Positions 9,713-30,817 of a stretch of 64,000 bases of DNA are shown here, in pieces. The position numbers and the translations under genes are program-made. The notes below the pieces were generated by a model, which made no database searches, was not told where the DNA came from, and was given only the letters and a program-made list of their open reading frames with translations. Numbering within the stretch: the first letter of the stretch is position 1; every line of letters begins with the position of its first letter. The stretch comes from a virus (Duplodnaviria > Caudoviricetes): IMG/VR virus record IMGVR_UViG_3300034349_000079, positions 1 through 64,000 of that record; one strand, written 5' to 3'.

Positions 9713-9778
9713 TGGTGGACAATAGCGGTGTCGAACCGCTTATTCCTACGTGATAGGAAGTATTCCCGATAATTGCCC
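9713..9778 (-). ncRNA. D-stemless tRNA-like RNA C (G3:U70, A73, CCA)
   Basis: GGGCAAT/ATTGTCC-A-CCA, 12-nt TATCGGGAATAC loop, TTCCTAT/GTAGGAA hairpin, AGCGG/CCGCT T-arm. Confidence 0.7.
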
Positions 9779-9788
9779 ATAGTTTGAT

Positions 9789-9869
9789 TGGTTGACACTG
9801 GTGGATTCGAACCACCACCTCCCCCGCGTTAAGCTTAAACGCGTGGGAAAGACTTCCCAAAGAGTGCCA
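9789..9869 (-). ncRNA. D-stemless tRNA-like RNA D (G3:U70, A73, CCA)
   Basis: TGGCACT/AGTGTCA-A-CCA, 12-nt CTTTGGGAAGTC loop, 12-bp hairpin, GGTGG/CCACC T-arm. Confidence 0.7.
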
Positions 9870-11628: not shown

Positions 11629-12327
11629 TCAAGTTCTAGGTTTTAAGACTGGGTTATATGGGCGTAGAAGCTTGCGCTCTATTTCGTGAGCCATTGTTGG
11701 TGTTCGATCCAGTCTGTAGAAATACTTTGTATCATCAGGTTCTTCAGACCATCCAAATTGTTCGTACCAGTCTGACTCTGGTTGCCCAAAGAATTCCCAG
11801 ATAGCTTGATAATTTTCTCTTGTCCAGGAAGTACGAGATGGAAGTAAGTTTCTCGTACAAGCGTGATCTGGGTACTCAGCATTTTTCCATTTTTTGTGTG
11901 TTGCTATTTTACAACCCTTATACAATAGTAGAGCACGGAGGCCAGAATGAAATTCTTCATCCCCCCAAAAAGGAGGATCAATTTCTGGATACTCTGCCTC
12001 CTCCAGTTTTGAGACTATGTCACGCCACTTAAAAAGCGCTTCCTTACGCTTCTTCAGCATCTCAGTTTTGCCACTTACCTTGATAGGACGTATGATTCGT
12101 TCTTCAGATGTGGTGGCTATAAAACGAGCTAATTGTAGTTCGGCGTTAGTCCAGAATTTTGCCATTGTGTGGTATGAATATCCACTTTCTCCATTAGCCC
12201 TTTTGGGATAACATTCACAAAGACTTTTCAAGATAAGTAGACCAGCTACTTCTACTTGATATAAGTGCTTGATACTCAGTGCCTTAGCACTTCTCTCAAA
12301 ATCTGGGAAAGGCATAAAGACGATCAT
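11629..12327 (-). CDS. pyrimidine-dimer DNA glycosylase (DenV / MSMEG_6728-like)
   Basis: FMPFPDFERSAKAL...HTMAKFW...PPFWGDEEFH pattern. Confidence 0.7.
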   Translation of the reverse strand: MIVFMPFPDFERSAKALSIKHLYQVEVAGLLILKSLCECYPKRANGESGYSYHTMAKFWTNAELQLARFIATTSEERIIRPIKVSGKTEMLKKRKEALFKWRDIVSKLEEAEYPEIDPPFWGDEEFHSGLRALLLYKGCKIATHKKWKNAEYPDHACTRNLLPSRTSWTRENYQAIWEFFGQPESDWYEQFGWSEEPDDTKYFYRLDRTPTMAHEIERKLLRPYNPVLKPRT

Positions 12328-13004
12328 CAGAATTTTCTTATGCTAGCTTCGCCATCATTAATCTCAAGAACTTCTCGTTTTCTTGGAAAACAATCGACAT
12401 TGAAGTTATCTGGATAAACTTCCCATACTCCTTGTGAGGTACCAAAAGGACGATAATTAGAATGTCCAAACACTTGTTTGATGCCAGGGACTGGTTTAAA
12501 TTCTTCTGTATCACACCAGAGAATTCCTCCAACAGGAAATAGGCCGCCTCTAGTATAGCCAATTTGTGCGAGGTTTTCGATTGGTGCTTCATCAAGATAT
12601 TTTACTATTTCTTGAAAATTCATATCTTTTTCAGGTAACCAACTTTCGCTGACTCCAGCGTGAGTGACGAGAAAATCATCTACTATAACATACCATCGAA
12701 AATTTCTTAAAATACGTGCCTTCCGTTTGTTTATTTCTTGCTGTGTTTTATGTTCATAACCAGAACATGCATAACGATTATTCAAATACCCATATTCGTG
12801 ATTCGCGATTAAAGCAGTTACATTATCTCTTGTTTCAATAGCTTCTAAAACTAAATCAACGCATTCTATTTGTTCATCTATGTTTTTATCAAAGCTATCT
12901 ACAAAATCAGATACGAATACTGTGGCTTGGTCTTTGTCTTGGAGCAAATCTCTAACATGGCCGACCAACCCATGGATGTCGCCGCATACAATAACGCTAC
13001 TCAT
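12327..13004 (-). CDS. metallophosphoesterase
   Basis: GDIHG, SDFVD, ANHE, THAG, WCD, FGHS. Confidence 0.85.
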   Translation of the reverse strand: MSSVIVCGDIHGLVGHVRDLLQDKDQATVFVSDFVDSFDKNIDEQIECVDLVLEAIETRDNVTALIANHEYGYLNNRYACSGYEHKTQQEINKRKARILRNFRWYVIVDDFLVTHAGVSESWLPEKDMNFQEIVKYLDEAPIENLAQIGYTRGGLFPVGGILWCDTEEFKPVPGIKQVFGHSNYRPFGTSQGVWEVYPDNFNVDCFPRKREVLEINDGEASIRKF

Positions 13005-17411: not shown

Positions 17412-17714
17412 TTATACATATTTAAAAAACACTATTTCAGGTAGAAAATAAAGTAGGCTGCTGGAAGAATCACCGATGTGAAGTTTCCACACCTCATATC
17501 GTAGTAGATTTTTCCGTGCAGCACTTCGTTTAGCACCAGCTAATGTGCCATGAATCTTGTGCCCGTCACCAAGTCCTATGTAGTCGCAGAACCAACTAGT
17601 GATTAATCCCGTCGGTACACTGTACTTATAGGTTGGATAATCAAAGATCTTTATTCTGTACCCAATGTCTTGGTGTTTAAGAGTAGGTGCTGTTATTGCA
17701 ATTGTGTTAACCAT
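17412..17714 (-). CDS. hypothetical protein
   Basis: 100-aa ORF; see 16765..17037. Confidence 0.6.
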   Translation of the reverse strand: MVNTIAITAPTLKHQDIGYRIKIFDYPTYKYSVPTGLITSWFCDYIGLGDGHKIHGTLAGAKRSAARKNLLRYEVWKLHIGDSSSSLLYFLPEIVFFKYV

Positions 17715-18738
17715 CGTTTTTCAGTAAGTACTCGTTGTTAATAACCTTAAATGACGTCGCACCATCTGCCGATTTGAATACCAACCCTTCAATTGAAGGC
17801 ATAGAAGGAAATTTTGTCCGGTTAATTAACTCCGGCAAAGCTAGAATTGATTCCATATCTGTAATACCTAATTCAGGCAGTGTAAAATTCAACCCAAGAG
17901 TAGGAACATGGTTCAAAAAATGTGCTTCGCAAAATGCCGTACGTTCAATATGCGGTAAATAACACTGGTTGTCAATATCCCAAATGTCAAAGATGTAAAT
18001 TTGTACATTGAGATAACCTGCTCTATTTCTTTGAACCCCTGGTCCTGCAAGTTCTCCTTGTACTGCAAGATTTCGACCACAGGCTTCTAGTGCCTTAATG
18101 ATCCCTGAATTCTGTGCCGCATGTATGAACGCATTCCCTGAATTTTCGGGATCCATTTTTAGATCTATGTTGTGAGAACAGACTCCAACTACTCCATCTT
18201 TTAAATAGCCTGTTATTGAACTTCCATCAACTTTCAGAGAGATTTCATACTTAGTCTCTTGGTCAAGTAGTACCTCAGGAATATTTTGTATACGCGTTTG
18301 ACTTGTGCGATGTACAAAATATGGAAAATTGCCTTTACCTAAACCCCTCATATTTTCGGGTAGTGCGCGCTCCCACTTAAGCACGCCGAGTAGCTCAGTG
18401 AGGTCCATGCCCTCGACAAATTTGGCATGCGGCCAATCAGGAAGTTTTAGCAGCAGTCCCTGTGATAATTGTCCACGTAAGCGAACTGTACGTAGTCTTT
18501 CACCTTGAACTTCTTCAAAAACCTTTGGAGAATGCCCAGGTTTTGTAAGAAATGGAGCGAGTTCTGTTGGTACCCAACTATCCACCTCAAAATATAGCAC
18601 TAATTCATCGGTCTTAAAATCATCTTTTTTTACAACACACATCCAGCCATCTACTCTGGCGACCTGGATACTATCCGCGCCTTCAATTGGATTAATTTCT
18701 GCGATACGTCGTATTGTTGCTAGTCTTCTCTCAGACAT
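17707..18738 (-). CDS. RNA ligase, Rnl2 / DRB0094 family
   Basis: N-terminal OB domain (LRTVRLRGQLSQGL), KVDGSS, QGELAGPGVQ, EGLVFK, SFKVINNEYLLK. Confidence 0.9.
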   Translation of the reverse strand: MSERRLATIRRIAEINPIEGADSIQVARVDGWMCVVKKDDFKTDELVLYFEVDSWVPTELAPFLTKPGHSPKVFEEVQGERLRTVRLRGQLSQGLLLKLPDWPHAKFVEGMDLTELLGVLKWERALPENMRGLGKGNFPYFVHRTSQTRIQNIPEVLLDQETKYEISLKVDGSSITGYLKDGVVGVCSHNIDLKMDPENSGNAFIHAAQNSGIIKALEACGRNLAVQGELAGPGVQRNRAGYLNVQIYIFDIWDIDNQCYLPHIERTAFCEAHFLNHVPTLGLNFTLPELGITDMESILALPELINRTKFPSMPSIEGLVFKSADGATSFKVINNEYLLKNDG

Positions 18739-27065: not shown

Positions 27066-28673
27066 TTAAATTTTCTCCGCGATGAAATCGGACACAATCT
27101 GAGGAAGGCTCGCATCAGCCCCAACGCAGTCCAGCATTCCGGAGTCTTTTGGATCAGCGATTGTGAAATTAGTCGCAGTCAAGCCCATGACTACTAACTT
27201 CACGTCGTGGCCTACTTGCTGGCGGTATTCGCGCAAAGCTTGTACTGGCTGAATACGGCCGGCGTAAGTCTCTGAATCCGTCGCGATAATTACAGTCTCA
27301 AAGTTCCGTTGCTTCTGTTTAGCCCAAACCACGGGGAGACTGCAATCAGTTCCGCCGAACGGTAATCGATTAGTTTGGCGAATTATATCGTCTAAGCGTT
27401 GTTTAGGGCTGATGTTGAGCGGAATAAAAGACGTCGAAAAGGCCATGAACTCGTAGTCTTCTTCCAGACGCGCGACTGCCATAGCAAAGGCAACAGAGGC
27501 AGTTCTTGCAGTCATATGCGTTCCTGCGACCATGCTACCGTCCATCGAGCCGCTGACATCCATGGCAAACAGGATTTTCTTTCCTGTCGGAGCAACGTTT
27601 TTGAAAGATAGGTAGAAAGCCGCATCCAGAGCATCTACTATCTTTTGAACCGGAGTCCAAGTTAAAGAACCTTTTACACCGCGCCCTGCCTGATAGGTTG
27701 TAAGAGCCAGAAGGATTGAGAAAGGATGTACACGCGCTTTTTGTAAAGCTTCTGCATCCTGTAGTTTGGAGATCACCAACTTTGTTGCTTCGCTATTTGG
27801 TTGAAGTAAGCCAATATTCGTCATCTTCGATAAGTTTCTAAGCGCCGCATGGAGTGGCATCTTTTGGAGCAAGGCTTCCCAGACGGAGACGCTATTGAGC
27901 CAGGTATTCGGAACCATCTCTCTTGTGAGCCCAAAATCATTTATCAGCGCGATATTTGGCTTATCTGGGCTAGCCATTGCCTTGATATGAGCTTGGACAG
28001 TTTGTGGAAGCATTGACTCATCCGCAACTACTTTTCCAACCGCCCACTTGAATAGATCATTCATTTCAGCATCTTTTGGGACTGGATGCGCCATACGTAG
28101 TGCGTCTTTTGTGGACCAGTCGTTACGAGTGCGATACTTGGTGAATTGATAGCCGAGTTGATCTGGGGTCTTGGATGTATACCACGAGGCAACAGTTTCG
28201 CGTAAAACACGTCCCCAGCCTCTAAGTGGATTCACATAGCTGATGAACTCAAACAAATGGCTCTGAGTCCGTACTACAGAAGAAAATACTTTCATGGCTT
28301 CATGACGTACAGGCAGAGTTCCATGCGAGAAGGCCAAGGCCAAAGCAAACAAGGTTGGACTTACTTTAGGACCCCTGCCTTCCACCGAGATTTGCTTGAG
28401 TAGCTGAATAGCTTCAACACCGATGTCTGAAGGAGCGGAGAAAATATCTACGGCTACTTTAGCGTTGTCCTTAGTCAGTTTCTGTTCTGTTGCGTAGTAT
28501 GTACCTCCGGAACTTCCAAGAATAAGAAAACGTTCGAACTGTTTAAGTGGAGAAATTGTAAAGGTCATGCCATGGGCATTGTTAAGCGACATTTCCCGTT
28601 CTCTACCAGGAATGACCTGCGTTTGTGGAGTTGTAGAATATGAGCGAGCGAAGTTTGCGTACGGACCGGACAT
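27066..28673 (-). CDS. rsr: Ro60/Rsr TROVE-domain RNA-binding protein
   Basis: RFLILGSSGGTYY, GWGRVLR, KYRTRNDWSTKDALRMAHP, MPLHAALRNL, vWA DVSGSM, GGTDCSLP, TDSET. Confidence 0.95.
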   Translation of the reverse strand: MSGPYANFARSYSTTPQTQVIPGREREMSLNNAHGMTFTISPLKQFERFLILGSSGGTYYATEQKLTKDNAKVAVDIFSAPSDIGVEAIQLLKQISVEGRGPKVSPTLFALALAFSHGTLPVRHEAMKVFSSVVRTQSHLFEFISYVNPLRGWGRVLRETVASWYTSKTPDQLGYQFTKYRTRNDWSTKDALRMAHPVPKDAEMNDLFKWAVGKVVADESMLPQTVQAHIKAMASPDKPNIALINDFGLTREMVPNTWLNSVSVWEALLQKMPLHAALRNLSKMTNIGLLQPNSEATKLVISKLQDAEALQKARVHPFSILLALTTYQAGRGVKGSLTWTPVQKIVDALDAAFYLSFKNVAPTGKKILFAMDVSGSMDGSMVAGTHMTARTASVAFAMAVARLEEDYEFMAFSTSFIPLNISPKQRLDDIIRQTNRLPFGGTDCSLPVVWAKQKQRNFETVIIATDSETYAGRIQPVQALREYRQQVGHDVKLVVMGLTATNFTIADPKDSGMLDCVGADASLPQIVSDFIAEKI

Positions 28674-29063: not shown

Positions 29064-29145
29064 AGAAACATTTGCATAGTTTATTCGGCAAGCTCCTACT
29101 ATGCTAGGAGTTTCACGGCCAGTCCTAGTTAGAACTGTCCTTGCC

Positions 29146-29457
29146 TTATTTTGGTAAAACGCTCGCAGCAAGCTGGTTGATGCTGCGTAAGAAAAGCAAA
29201 CGCGTTCTTGGATAAGTCCACTTTAGCCAATGTCTCTCGTTTGTTGGATCTCCTATCTCTTCAGACAGAATCATCCGCCATATTTGTGCTGGAGTGTACT
29301 TATGAATGTAGTTTTGATCCCGCGCTGCTTGGGCACTTACTACATGTCCGTGCATAATAGCTCTACGAATAGCCTTACGAACGGGGTCACTTTTATTATA
29401 TCGAGAATGATACAAATGATCTTTTGACATTGGCCTCTGATGAGAGCACCTACTCAT
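29146..29457 (-). CDS. hypothetical protein
   Basis: GAGGT RBS before MSRCSHQ. Confidence 0.6.
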   Translation of the reverse strand: MSRCSHQRPMSKDHLYHSRYNKSDPVRKAIRRAIMHGHVVSAQAARDQNYIHKYTPAQIWRMILSEEIGDPTNERHWLKWTYPRTRLLFLRSINQLAASVLPK

Positions 29458-29837
29458 AGTAGACCTCTGATTATTTCCTACATTTTCAACTAGCTTGCGG
29501 AGTATATTCGCTAGAAGCAACAAGCCGCCCCCGTGGTCCTAAAATTGAGTACACGAGCCTCCCGCCTGGCATTTTAGTAGGTTAAAACCCCCTGAAAAAA
29601 TTCGTCACCTGTGGGGTTATTTATCCTAGCATATTCTCCCACCGGTCTTCTTACAAGCCGAGGTGTGGCAAACGGATAAAGGGCGTTTTGTAAGACAAGC
29701 CCTTTAACAACTCTCTCACCTAAATGATCAATTTCTTGAGCGATGATGACAAAACGGTACTACCATAGAGATTTTTATTTTAATCCCCGGCCCTAAAGAC
29801 CGTTGGCTTTTCTTATTAGACGATGGTAGCATTAGTT

Positions 29838-29912: not shown

Positions 29913-29921
29913 ATATTTTGT

Positions 29922-29981
29922 AGGGCTAAAGATAGTTTTGCTGTTTGATCGCCTAATGATAAAGCAAAACTGGACGGCCCT
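29922..29981 (-). ncRNA. Y RNA-like element Y4
   Basis: AGGGCCGT-AGTTTTGCT-TTATC...AGCAAAACT-ATCTTTAGCCCT. Confidence 0.75.
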
Positions 29982-29986
29982 GAAAT

Positions 29987-30116
29987 TGGTGGAGTAGCCT
30001 CGATTTGCACGAGGATCGTTCATTTTACAGATGAGAATACATCACTATCGTACCGGGTTTGGACGGTCAAGATGTTGCAATGCACTTTTAACGCTCTACT
30101 ATTAAGCTACTACTCC
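29987..30116 (-). ncRNA. tRNA-Tyr(GTA)-like RNA with a 56-nt Y-module insertion in the anticodon stem
   Basis: complete acceptor, D and T arms and CCA; removing the insert gives GTTCAT-CTGTAAA-ATGAAC. Confidence 0.75.
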
Positions 30117-30122
30117 AGAAAT

Positions 30123-30187
30123 TGGCGCGAAAATAAGGGATAATCTACCGGCCGTGTTTGGCTAAAGATGTAGGTCCCGTTTTCGCA
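30123..30187 (-). ncRNA. circularly permuted Y-like RNA with CCA end (P1)
   Basis: TGCGAAAA/TTTTCGCG-CCA outer stem; inner ATCTTTAGCC-loop-GGCCG...TTATC. Confidence 0.65.
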
Positions 30188-30192
30188 TTGTT

Positions 30193-30259
30193 TGGTGCGA
30201 AATAAATAAACTCCACCGGCCAGTGGTTATAGGTGGGATCCTAGTCTAAATATTCCGCA
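30193..30259 (-). ncRNA. circularly permuted Y-like RNA with CCA end (P2)
   Basis: TGCGGAATA/TATTTCGCA-CCA; inner TAACC-ACT-GGCCG. Confidence 0.55.
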
Positions 30260-30264
30260 TTGTT

Positions 30265-30340
30265 TGGTAGCGAGGGCGCGATTCGGACGCGCGATCTTAG
30301 GTTTATGAGACCCATGAGATAACCACTTCTCCACCTCGCT
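30265..30340 (-). tRNA. trnM: tRNA-Met(CAT), initiator-like body
   Basis: TGGGT-CTCATAA-ACCTA, CCA. Confidence 0.85.
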
Positions 30341-30534: not shown

Positions 30535-30656
30535 TGGGACTGAGAGGTTTCGAACCTCTGACATGCTGTTGTGATAATACACCAAATCCGGACTATTTGT
30601 CAAGTTTGGATGGCGCATGTTTTTGACGGCTGCTCTACCAGCTGAGCTACAGTCCC
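30535..30656 (-). ncRNA. tRNA-like RNA with a 47-nt Y-module insertion in the anticodon stem
   Basis: GGGACTG/CAGTCCC, GCTC/GAGC D-arm, AGAGG/CCTCT T-arm; insert contains CTTGAC/GTCCGG helix. Confidence 0.7.
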
Positions 30657-30667
30657 ATTTAAAAAGG

Positions 30668-30817
30668 TGAGGGGAGCAGGTTTCGAAGCTGCAATTTCAC
30701 TATTAAGTGAACCGGTTCCTATTATTATGTAAGTCTATCGACCCATTTGTAATGGGTAAATATATCGATATACAATTTTATATATACCGGTGCGTCTACC
30801 AATTTCGCCATCCCCTC
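30668..30817 (-). ncRNA. tRNA-Leu-like RNA with a ~62-nt Y-module insertion in the anticodon loop
   Basis: Leu-type D-arm and variable arm, CCGGT/ACCGG stem; insert contains TTTACCC/GGGTCGA bulged helix. Confidence 0.7.

What the first reader, a model, noticed from the sequence alone, without database searches (positions are those of the whole stretch)
30123..30259. Two circularly permuted Y RNAs ending in an acceptor-like stem plus CCA
Both begin after the same AACAA-TGCG leader and close with an 8-9-bp stem and 3'-CCA. Inside, the Ro-helix strands are in reversed order and joined by a short loop (ATCTTTAGCC-AAACA-CGGCCG...TTATC; TAACC-ACT-GGCCG). ATCTTTAGCC is identical to the 3' end of Y4. 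A CCA-tailed Ro ligand could be processed by tRNA machinery and could thread its 3' end into Ro60 or recruit tRNA-acting enzymes.
Basis: partly seen in the sequence, partly recalled or inferred. Interest (0 to 1): 0.82.

Follow-up and report, generated by a model that had tools for sequence, protein, structure and literature searches.

The report
Mini Y RNAs with tRNA-like ends
Two neighbouring small RNA genes in an uncultured phage look like stripped-down partner RNAs of the phage's own Ro60 protein, rewired so that their ends form a tRNA-style stem ending in CCA; one copy keeps a convincing Ro60 docking helix, the other does not, and I found the design in no other Ro60 locus.

Summary
The letters are as described, on the minus strand. 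Two tandem units, A (30259-30193) and B (30187-30123), each start with U-GCG five bases (AACAA) after a CCA. Each closes with a 7-8 bp stem, one unpaired base and an encoded CCA. They lie in a tRNA/Y-RNA array 1.45 kb upstream of a full-length phage Ro60 gene on the same strand. Each folds as a rod of four helices. A and B keep these helices through compensatory changes, so they are real RNA genes.

The tip of B carries this phage's own version of the Ro60 docking helix in reversed strand order, followed by the UUAUC box. Its 10-mer is identical to the 3' end of the linear Y RNA nearby. A keeps only the 5' strand, and its tip barely pairs.

Related phages carry the same permuted module, but inside full tRNA-shaped scaffolds. 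This scan had already noted such scaffolds on this same genome. The acceptor-only form ending in CCA appeared in none of about 160 other Ro60 loci.

My best reading, at about 50%, is that these are minimal permuted Y RNAs cut out like tRNAs. B is a likely Ro60 ligand and A is a decaying or re-purposed copy. Binding, mature ends and any threading of the 3' end are untested. This is a new variant of a known kind.

The parts
30193..30259 (-). Unit A. U(-1) is at 30259 and G1 at 30258. The closing stem pairs 30258-30251 with 30204-30197. The middle helix pairs 30248-30243 with 30212-30207. Stem 2 pairs 30236-30233 with 30216-30213. The degenerate tip is 30229-30225, loop 30224-30222, then 30221-30217. 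The discriminator is 30196 and the CCA is 30195-30193.
   Evidence: The closing and middle helices have pairing probability about 1.0, stem 2 about 0.33 and the tip 0.08 or less.
30123..30187 (-). Unit B. U(-1) is at 30187 and G1 at 30186. The closing stem pairs 30186-30180 with 30133-30127. The middle helix pairs 30178-30175 with 30140-30137. Stem 2 pairs 30173-30170 with 30148-30145. A bulge lies at 30169-30165. The Ro-helix 3' strand is 30164-30160, the loop 30159-30154 and the Ro-helix 5' strand 30153-30149. The UUAUC box is 30143-30139. The discriminator is 30126 and the CCA is 30125-30123.
   Evidence: The fold has z -2.57, and the tip G-C pairs have probability 0.98-1.0.
30188..30192 (-). 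The AACAA spacer between the CCA of A and the U(-1) of B. The same five bases lie at 30264-30260, between the CCA of tRNA-Met and A.
30265..30340 (-). Upstream neighbour: tRNA-Met with an encoded CCA.
29987..30116 (-). Downstream neighbour: a tRNA-shaped RNA with an encoded CCA. It carries a permuted Ro-type helix in an extended anticodon arm.
29917..29983 (-). The linear Y RNA called 'Y4'. Its ends form the Ro helix, and its 3' strand shares the exact 10-mer with B.
27066..28673 (-). The phage Ro60 gene (TROVE plus vWA domains, 535 aa), the presumed protein partner.
   Evidence: Pfam E 3e-44 and 2e-58. (full-length matches to human, Xenopus and Deinococcus Ro60 structures, E 1e-105 to 1e-114).

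Best explanation
A and B are two tandem small RNA genes, each giving a mature RNA of about 62-66 nt. They are specific to this phage lineage and belong to its Ro60-linked array of tRNAs and Y RNAs.

Each RNA is a rod of four stacked helices. At one end a 7-8 bp acceptor-type stem carries a discriminator base and an encoded CCA. At the other end lies the Ro60 docking helix of a Y RNA, with its two strands in swapped order and joined by a short loop. They are therefore minimal versions of the tRNA-shaped, circularly permuted Y RNAs found in this phage and in related Ro60 phages, with the D and T arms lost.

Inferred life cycle. The array is transcribed as one precursor. RNase P cuts after U(-1). 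3' trimming stops at the CCA, which protects the end. B then docks on the phage Ro60 through its tip helix. There it would act like other Y RNAs, as a gate or tether. The exposed acceptor/CCA end would be its effector module in place of a tRNA-like elbow. A has lost the 3' strand of the docking helix. It is either a weak binder or is kept for its acceptor/CCA end alone.

Shown here: the sequence features, the folds, the covariation between the copies, the context, and the recurrence of the permuted module elsewhere. Inferred: transcription, the mature ends, Ro60 binding and the function.
For: Location:
- A and B are on the same strand as a full-length Ro60 gene and 1.45 kb upstream of it.
- They lie inside an array of tRNAs and Y RNAs.
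- A Y-RNA signature (Ro 5' strand plus the UUAYC box) hits 7 times on this strand of the window, 6 of them at 28.7-31.2 kb, and never on the other strand. In 80 related loci it hits 163 times on the Ro60 strand and 31 times on the opposite strand.

Folding:
- The 433-nt stretch from tRNA-Met to Y4 folds into five separate domains with exactly these borders (z -3.24).
- The A+B dimer has z -3.76, and no shuffle folds as well.

Covariation between A and B:
- Pair 7 of the closing stem is U-A in A and A-U in B.
- Pair 4 is G-U in A and A-U in B.
- Stem 2 has C-G in A and U-A in B.
- The middle helix has entirely different letters in the two copies (6 pairs in A, 4 in B).

B's tip:
- It has the phage's own helix variant, with an A opposite the bulged C, as in the linear Y RNAs.
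- It shares an exact 10-mer with Y4.
- The UUAUC box follows stem 2.

The same permuted order in relatives:
- At least 17 modules in about 13 related loci show 3' strand, loop, 5' strand, stem, then the UUAYC box.
- They have nearly invariant helix letters, and all sit in tRNA-like scaffolds next to Ro60.

Processing:
- Seven of 13 tRNAs in the window encode N-CCA, and most have U at -1, as A and B do.

Precedents in print:
- M. smegmatis YrlA is cut by RNase P and gains CCA (PMC4201824; 10.1101/312249).
- A phage Ro60 binds phage-encoded Y-like RNAs in vitro (PMC12135203).
Against: - No second genome has the acceptor-only form. It is absent from about 160 Ro60 loci and from the phage collection. 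The only comparison is therefore between two paralogues.
- A's tip helix is essentially unpaired.
- B's terminal helix has only 3 G-C pairs, and thermodynamics prefers a shifted stem 2.
- Rfam YrlA, Y_RNA and tRNA models do not hit A or B. My own model of the permuted module from relatives does not hit them either, although it also misses this phage's tRNA-shaped copies.
- A and B have no elbow, which RNase P, RNase Z and CCA-adding enzymes normally use (PMC4810234).
- There are no data on expression, ends or binding.
Confidence: 0.5

Rival explanations
1. A and B are decaying remnants. On this reading they are pseudogenes left after deletion of the D and T arms from tRNA-shaped Y RNAs. They would be transcribed as part of the array but would have no function of their own.
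For: The design is found in no other locus. A's docking helix is degenerate. No RNA family model recognises either unit. Neither has an elbow.
Against: Three helices are kept in both copies through compensatory and wholesale sequence change. Both copies retain the CCA, U(-1), the AACAA spacer and the exact 5'-strand block. Neutral decay would have broken the stems first.
Confidence: 0.17
2. A and B are acceptor/CCA minihelices that work without Ro60. They could be processing punctuation that helps release the neighbouring RNAs. They could also be decoys or sponges for host factors that act on tRNA 3' ends, with the Ro-like letters only inherited baggage.
For: The best-kept parts of both copies are the closing stem, CCA, U(-1) and spacer. 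A has lost the Ro helix yet keeps a perfect 8-9 bp stem.
Against: The 5'-strand block of the Ro helix is identical in A and B, while most of the interior has diverged. B keeps the whole helix and the UUAUC box. Both units sit among Y RNAs next to Ro60.
Confidence: 0.18
3. The repeat should be read in the other phase. One ordinary linear Y RNA would run from 30221 to 30160. Its ends would form the Ro helix. Its middle would be a closed acceptor-like hairpin made from the 3' stem strand of A and the 5' stem strand of B, with the CCA and spacer in the loop. This is the YrlA layout.
For: The strands are complementary, giving 7 pairs, and the fold exists at -13.5 kcal/mol. YrlA has a closed acceptor stem that RNase P can open in M. 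smegmatis (PMC4201824).
Against: The fold is no better than shuffles (z -0.95, against -3.76 for the two separate rods). It has no middle helix. It leaves the 5' half of A and the 3' half of B without partners. The long precursor folds into separate A and B rods.
Confidence: 0.07
4. There is no RNA gene of this kind here. The stems would be chance or spacer sequence, and the hairpin inside A (30226-30213, followed by a U-rich run) would be a weak intrinsic terminator or attenuator within the array.
For: The terminator scan flags that hairpin. Stems of 7 pairs followed by N-CCA are common by chance.
Against: The scan found one terminator-like site where shuffles give three. Genes on the same strand continue directly downstream. 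The covariation between A and B and the fold z-scores argue for real structure.
Confidence: 0.06

Closest known systems
YrlA, the bacterial and phage tRNA-like Y RNA (Rfam RF02553; Chen et al. 2014, PMC4201824; Wang et al. 2018, 10.1101/312249)
   Same: It is encoded next to Ro60 on the same strand. It has the Ro docking helix with a bulged C and a GNCG-type 5' strand, followed by a second stem and a conserved junction box. Its effector module is borrowed from tRNA.
   Different: In YrlA the two RNA ends form the Ro helix, the acceptor stem is a closed loop, there is no free CCA, and D and T arms form an elbow. In A and B the ends form the acceptor stem with an encoded CCA, the Ro helix is closed by a loop, and there are no D or T arms. 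The Rfam model does not hit them.
[quoted passage not shown]
   Same: It is a Ro60-bound Y RNA species with an open 7-bp acceptor stem and a CCA tail.
   Different: There it is a two-piece RNA made by cutting a closed loop, the CA is added after transcription, and the tRNA-like elbow is present. Here it would be a single chain with a templated CCA and no elbow.
tRNA-shaped permuted Y RNAs of Ro60 phages (window 29987-30116, 30535-30656, 30668-30817; related loci L003, L004, L021, L039, L055, L074 and others). I found no paper describing them; this scan noted them earlier on this genome.
   Same: They have the same permuted order: 3' strand, loop, 5' strand, stem 2, then the UUAYC box. Their ends form an acceptor stem. 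They sit next to Ro60 among tRNAs.
   Different: They are 96-150 nt long with D and T arms, and mostly have no encoded CCA (about 1 of 17). A and B are 62-66 nt, keep only the acceptor stem, and encode the CCA.
Yrl1 and Yrl2 of Thermus phage phiLo, bound by its Ro60 (PMC12135203)
   Same: They are phage-encoded Y-like RNAs upstream of a phage Ro60. Binding was shown by gel shift, and they form complexes with host PNPase.
   Different: They have the linear layout with a stem formed by the 5' and 3' ends, and no acceptor stem or CCA is described.
tRNA acceptor minihelices and small tRNA-like RNAs released by tRNA enzymes, such as mascRNA (from my own knowledge and the introduction of 10.1101/312249)
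   Same: They are short hairpins whose closing stem plus single-stranded N-CCA is what 3'-end and 5'-end tRNA enzymes see.
   Different: Those keep a T stem-loop or a cloverleaf. None carries a Ro60 docking helix.

Membership tests
Y RNA / YrlA | Encoded within a few kb of the Ro60 gene, on the same strand | tested here: met
   Ro60 is at 27066-28673 on the minus strand. A and B lie 1.45-1.6 kb upstream on the same strand.
Y RNA / YrlA | A bulged docking helix with a GNCG(A/G)-type 5' strand that pairs with a UU-containing 3' strand | tested here: inconclusive
   B meets this in the phage's own variant, with 3 G-C pairs, an A opposite the bulged C, and a G-U pair. It shares an exact 10-mer with the linear Y RNA. 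A keeps only the 5' strand, and its tip pairing probability is 0.08 or less.
Y RNA / YrlA | The docking helix is formed by the 5' and 3' ends of the RNA | tested here: not met
   The helix is internal and closed by a loop of 3-6 bases. The ends form the acceptor-type stem. The alternative linear phase folds no better than shuffles.
Y RNA / YrlA | Match to the curated covariance models (RF02553, RF00019) | tested here: not met
   There is no hit on A or B at E up to 10.
Y RNA / YrlA | Physical binding to Ro60 | not testable with these tools
   This needs a gel shift or a pull-down.
tRNA | A 7-bp acceptor stem, a discriminator base and a 3' CCA | tested here: met
   A has 8 pairs and B has 7, each followed by N-CCA, in register with the neighbouring genes.
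tRNA | A cloverleaf with D, anticodon and T arms | tested here: not met
   ARAGORN and the Rfam tRNA model give no hit. There is no T-loop motif. The fold is a rod.
tRNA-shaped permuted Y RNA (undescribed family) | A permuted module: 3' strand, loop, 5' strand, stem 2, then the UUAYC box | tested here: inconclusive
   By eye and by signature, B has every part. Model R1, built from 17 modules in relatives, does not hit A or B, but it also misses this phage's own tRNA-shaped copies.
tRNA-shaped permuted Y RNA (undescribed family) | D and T arms between the acceptor stem and the module | tested here: not met
   The scaffolds in relatives are 96-150 nt with a T-loop. A and B are 62-66 nt without one.
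Intrinsic terminator | A G+C-rich hairpin followed by a U tract at the end of a transcription unit | tested here: inconclusive
   There is one weak site inside A (5 pairs, with an interrupted U run). Shuffles give 3.0 such sites. Genes continue downstream.

The most novel reading that the evidence does not exclude
B, and perhaps A, would be a Ro60-tethered mimic of the tRNA acceptor end. On this reading the phage uses Ro60 plus this RNA to bring a factor that acts on tRNA 3' ends to the Ro60 ring, or to soak such a factor up. Candidates are a 3' exonuclease, the CCA-adding enzyme, an aminoacyl-tRNA synthetase, or a host toxin that modifies CCA ends. Alternatively the RNA's own CCA tail enters the Ro60 channel as a built-in gate. 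This would be a Y RNA whose effector module is a bare acceptor stem. It would tie Ro60 directly to surveillance or protection of tRNA 3' ends during infection.
Probability: 0.12. Interest if true: 0.85.

Novelty: new variant of a known kind. Interest (0 to 1): 0.55.

Why it matters
Y RNAs are described as RNAs whose two ends make the Ro60 docking helix. Their bacterial tRNA-like form is described as lacking a free CCA end. Here the same docking module appears turned inside out and reduced to a rod whose only other feature is a tRNA acceptor end with CCA.

If B binds Ro60, three things follow:
- It defines the smallest natural Ro60 ligand of this kind.
- It shows that the docking helix tolerates closure at the end where Y RNAs normally have their termini.
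- It points to the acceptor/CCA end as the part of the tRNA mimic that matters. What the tRNA-like module of bacterial Y RNAs is for is an open question.

It would also give a simple pair of natural variants for binding studies, B with the helix and A without it.

Tried and rejected
RNA family and gene finders:
- Rfam at gathering and at E up to 10, and the YrlA model on the whole record, gave nothing on A or B.
- ARAGORN gave nothing.

Searches for relatives:
- Near and distant DNA searches in the phage collection matched only the tRNA-Met.
- Ro60-guided fetches gave 80 viral and 80 metagenome loci. The best share 50% protein identity, so none is a close relative.
- An exact-pattern scan for B's tip in viral contigs gave only chance matches.
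- A 24-mer anchor from the neighbouring tRNA-Met gave no match in viral or metagenome contigs.
- BLAST of A+B against the phage's own 83.6-kb record found no further copy.
The 131.6-kb contig that carries an identical Ro60 (P0001) and the contigs of the 51-53% relatives (P0002-P0006) could therefore not be examined.

Descriptor scans and models:
- My first loose helix descriptors were too unspecific.
- Descriptor scans for acceptor-only rods of 44-66 nt holding a permuted helix or the Y signature gave equal counts on both strands of the Ro60 loci (66 against 61). Almost none had N-CCA. I read this as absence of the design.
- Model R1 of the permuted module missed all of this phage's permuted copies. 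It is therefore uninformative for membership.

Readings rejected:
- The window has no ORF of 50 aa or more over the region.
- I rejected the linear-phase reading on fold statistics.
- I rejected the terminator reading on the scan statistics.

Full report
WHAT IS THERE

The window is part of an 83.6-kb uncultured virus record that is about 64% complete. The finding lies on the minus strand. Two units stand head to tail.
- Unit A runs from 30259 to 30193.
- Unit B runs from 30187 to 30123.
- Each starts with U-GCG exactly five bases (AACAA) after a CCA. For A that is the CCA of tRNA-Met. For B it is the CCA of A. The 9-mer made of spacer plus start occurs exactly only at these two places in 64 kb.
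- A closes with 8 pairs, or 9 if U(-1) pairs with the discriminator. B closes with 7 pairs, or 8 with a wobble. Each stem is followed by one unpaired base and an encoded CCA.
- Six bases after the CCA of B comes the first base of a tRNA-shaped RNA (30116-29987). That RNA also ends in an encoded CCA. It is followed by a linear Y RNA and then tRNA-Asp.
- No ORF of 50 aa or more covers the region.
- ARAGORN and Rfam call neither unit.

IS IT MORE THAN CHANCE?

A stem of 7 pairs followed by N-CCA is not rare on its own. Shuffled windows give about 22 on the two strands together. The case therefore rests on other evidence.
- The A+B dimer folds into two separate rods with z -3.76. None of 200 shuffles folds as well.
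- The 433-nt stretch from tRNA-Met to the linear Y RNA folds into five separate domains whose borders are exactly the proposed gene borders (z -3.24).
- A and B are paralogues that have diverged over most of their length, yet they keep the same architecture:
  - In the closing stem, pair 7 is U-A in A and A-U in B. Pair 4 is G-U in A and A-U in B.
  - A middle helix is present in both copies with completely different letters, 6 pairs in A and 4 in B.
  - Stem 2 carries one compensatory change, C-G in A and U-A in B.
  - The closing and middle helices have pairing probability near 1.0 in both.

I take this as good evidence that both are real, structured RNA genes. The caveat is that the comparison is between only two copies in one genome.

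CONTEXT

- The 535-aa ORF at 27066-28673 on the same strand is a full-length Ro60. It has TROVE and Ro60-vWA domains. It matches the solved human, Xenopus and Deinococcus Ro60 structures end to end, with E 1e-105 to 1e-114.
- The 3 kb upstream of it hold tRNAs interleaved with several linear Y RNAs.
- An RNA ligase gene and a metallophosphoesterase gene lie 11-17 kb further along on the same strand.

WHAT A Y RNA LOOKS LIKE IN PHAGES OF THIS KIND

I fetched 80 viral loci and 80 metagenome loci that encode Ro60 relatives at 41-50% identity. The two best loci carry arrays of Y RNAs just upstream of Ro60, and these have a clear consensus:
- a G-rich 5' strand of the GNCG(A/G) type;
- a second stem strand of about 6-10 bases;
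- a (G)UUAYC box;
- a variable module;
- the return strand of the second stem;
- a 3' strand that begins with UU.

This fits the motif of Chen et al. 2014. A signature made of the 5' strand plus the UUAYC box hits 163 times on the Ro60 strand of the 80 viral loci and 31 times on the other strand. In the window it hits 7 times on the minus strand, 6 of them in the array including B, and never on the plus strand.

THE PERMUTED MODULE IS A RECURRENT DESIGN

- In at least 17 cases in about 13 of these loci the parts come in the other order: return strand, UU-containing 3' strand, a loop of 3-8 bases (30 in one case), 5' strand, second stem, UUAYC box.
- The second stem pairs strongly in these cases, and the helix letters are nearly invariant.
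- In all but one or two of these the module sits in the anticodon-arm position of a tRNA-like scaffold. The scaffold is 96-150 nt, has a 7-bp acceptor stem and a T-loop, and mostly has no encoded CCA.
- The window has three such tRNA-shaped copies, at 29987-30116, 30535-30656 and 30668-30817. Earlier notes of this scan on this same genome reached the same reading for the first two. I saw them independently and treat those notes as agreement, not as evidence.
- Published YrlA RNAs have the opposite topology. Their ends make the Ro helix, their acceptor stem is closed, and they have no free CCA.

ANATOMY OF B

From the 5' end, B consists of:
- the closing stem strand;
- one unpaired base;
- the middle helix strand;
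- one unpaired base;
- stem 2 (4 pairs);
- a 5-base bulge;
- the 3' strand of the Ro helix;
- a 6-base loop;
- the 5' strand of the Ro helix;
- the return strand of stem 2;
- the UUAUC box, overlapping the return strand of the middle helix;
- three unpaired bases;
- the closing stem return strand, the discriminator and the CCA.

The helix is this phage's own variant, which has an A opposite the bulged C. Five of its linear Y RNAs share this variant. The bulge plus 3' strand is letter for letter the 3' end of the linear Y RNA 230 bases downstream, and this is the only other exact copy in the window. The three G-C pairs at the tip have probability 0.98-1.0. B is thus a complete permuted Y module whose scaffold has shrunk to an acceptor stem.

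Two weak points remain. The terminal helix has only 3 pairs, against 5 in the linear copies. Thermodynamics also prefers a stem 2 shifted by four bases.

ANATOMY OF A

A has the same layout. Its 5' strand block and the start of stem 2 are identical to B's. Its 3' strand has changed, however, so only two G-C pairs remain, closed by a 3-base loop and flanked by two A-C mismatches. These pairs have probability 0.00-0.08. The minimum-energy fold uses a competing hairpin instead. A has no UUAUC box. A is therefore a doubtful Ro60 ligand.

PHASE AMBIGUITY

Tandem permuted units can also be read as linear units in another phase. The 3' stem strand of A is complementary to the 5' stem strand of B. A linear Y RNA from 30221 to 30160, with a closed acceptor-like hairpin and the CCA in its loop, can therefore be drawn. 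That would be the YrlA layout.
- This fold is no better than shuffles (z -0.95).
- It has no middle helix.
- It leaves two half-units without partners.
- The precursor prefers the separate rods.

I reject this reading but list it as a rival.

IS THE ACCEPTOR-ONLY FORM FOUND ELSEWHERE?

No.
- Descriptor scans of about 160 Ro60 loci for rods of 44-66 nt closed by 7 pairs, holding a permuted helix or the Y signature, give equal counts on both strands. Almost none has N-CCA.
- The phage collection, pattern scans and anchor scans gave no relative.
- The phage's own record has no further copy.
- The tool that could have fetched the 131.6-kb contig with an identical Ro60 was closed.

The design is, as far as I can see, specific to this lineage.

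MECHANISM

Shown: the features, the folds, the covariation, the context, and the recurrence of the permuted module.

Inferred from established knowledge:
- The array is a polycistronic precursor.
- RNase P cuts after U(-1). A U at -1 and a 3' CCA are favoured by bacterial RNase P (my own knowledge).
- 3' trimming stops at the CCA.
- Seven of the 13 tRNAs in the window also encode N-CCA.
- M. smegmatis YrlA shows that a Ro60-bound Y RNA can be an RNase P substrate and carry CCA.
- A phage Ro60 has been shown to bind phage-encoded Y-like RNAs and host PNPase.

Against efficient processing: A and B lack the elbow that RNase P, RNase Z and CCA-adding enzymes use as a ruler. The templated CCA removes the need for one of these enzymes.

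I propose that B docks on Ro60 by its tip and presents its acceptor/CCA end as the effector module. What that end recruits, and whether it enters the Ro60 channel, is open.

VERDICT

- The label 'permuted Y RNA' is well founded for B and weak for A.
- This is a new variant of a known kind, a Y RNA. It is a reduced form of the tRNA-shaped permuted Y RNAs, which are themselves not in the papers I could search.
- Interest is moderate to good. It is held back by the single genome and by the lack of any data on binding or mature ends.

Noticed in passing
window 29755-29830 (-): This 76-nt element has an 8-bp closing stem, three short hairpins and an ACC tail. It scores 25.9 bits against the Rfam tRNA model, below the cut-off. 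Its middle hairpin is built from the same two short motifs that mark B and the linear Y RNA, but here they abut each other and form a hairpin with a 3-base loop. It may be another relative of the A/B family.
   Followed up: partly
window 29082-29122 (-): This is a very small linear Y-like RNA of about 41 nt. It is a Ro-type bulged helix capped by a single 6-bp hairpin, lying just downstream of the 125-aa ORF at 29146-29523.
   Followed up: partly
L065:5884-5944 and L020:5850-5960: In two related loci a permuted Ro-type hairpin stands alone, without a tRNA scaffold, directly upstream of the Ro60 start codon. The 3' strand, a 4-6 base loop and the 5' strand are all present. It could be a site where Ro60 binds its own mRNA leader.
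   Followed up: no
L009:5782-5900 and L004:5866-5965: In canonical YrlA-type copies of related phages the closed acceptor stem has a loop that reads discriminator plus CCA, directly fused to the 5' strand. The gene therefore looks like a literal head-to-tail permuted tRNA.
   Followed up: no
window 9713-9869 (-): This is another tandem pair of small RNAs that each end in a 7-bp stem plus N-CCA. My CCA-stem count picked it up.
   Followed up: no
window 17707-18738 (-) and 12327-13004 (-): An RNA ligase (Pfam RNA_ligase plus the PHA02142 OB domain) and a calcineurin-like phosphoesterase lie on the same strand as the Ro60 array. This fits an RNA repair or RNA quality-control gene set.
   Followed up: partly
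L007:3625-3842 and L013:9571-9788: Group I introns (Rfam, 89 bits) lie near the Ro60 genes of two related viral contigs.
   Followed up: no
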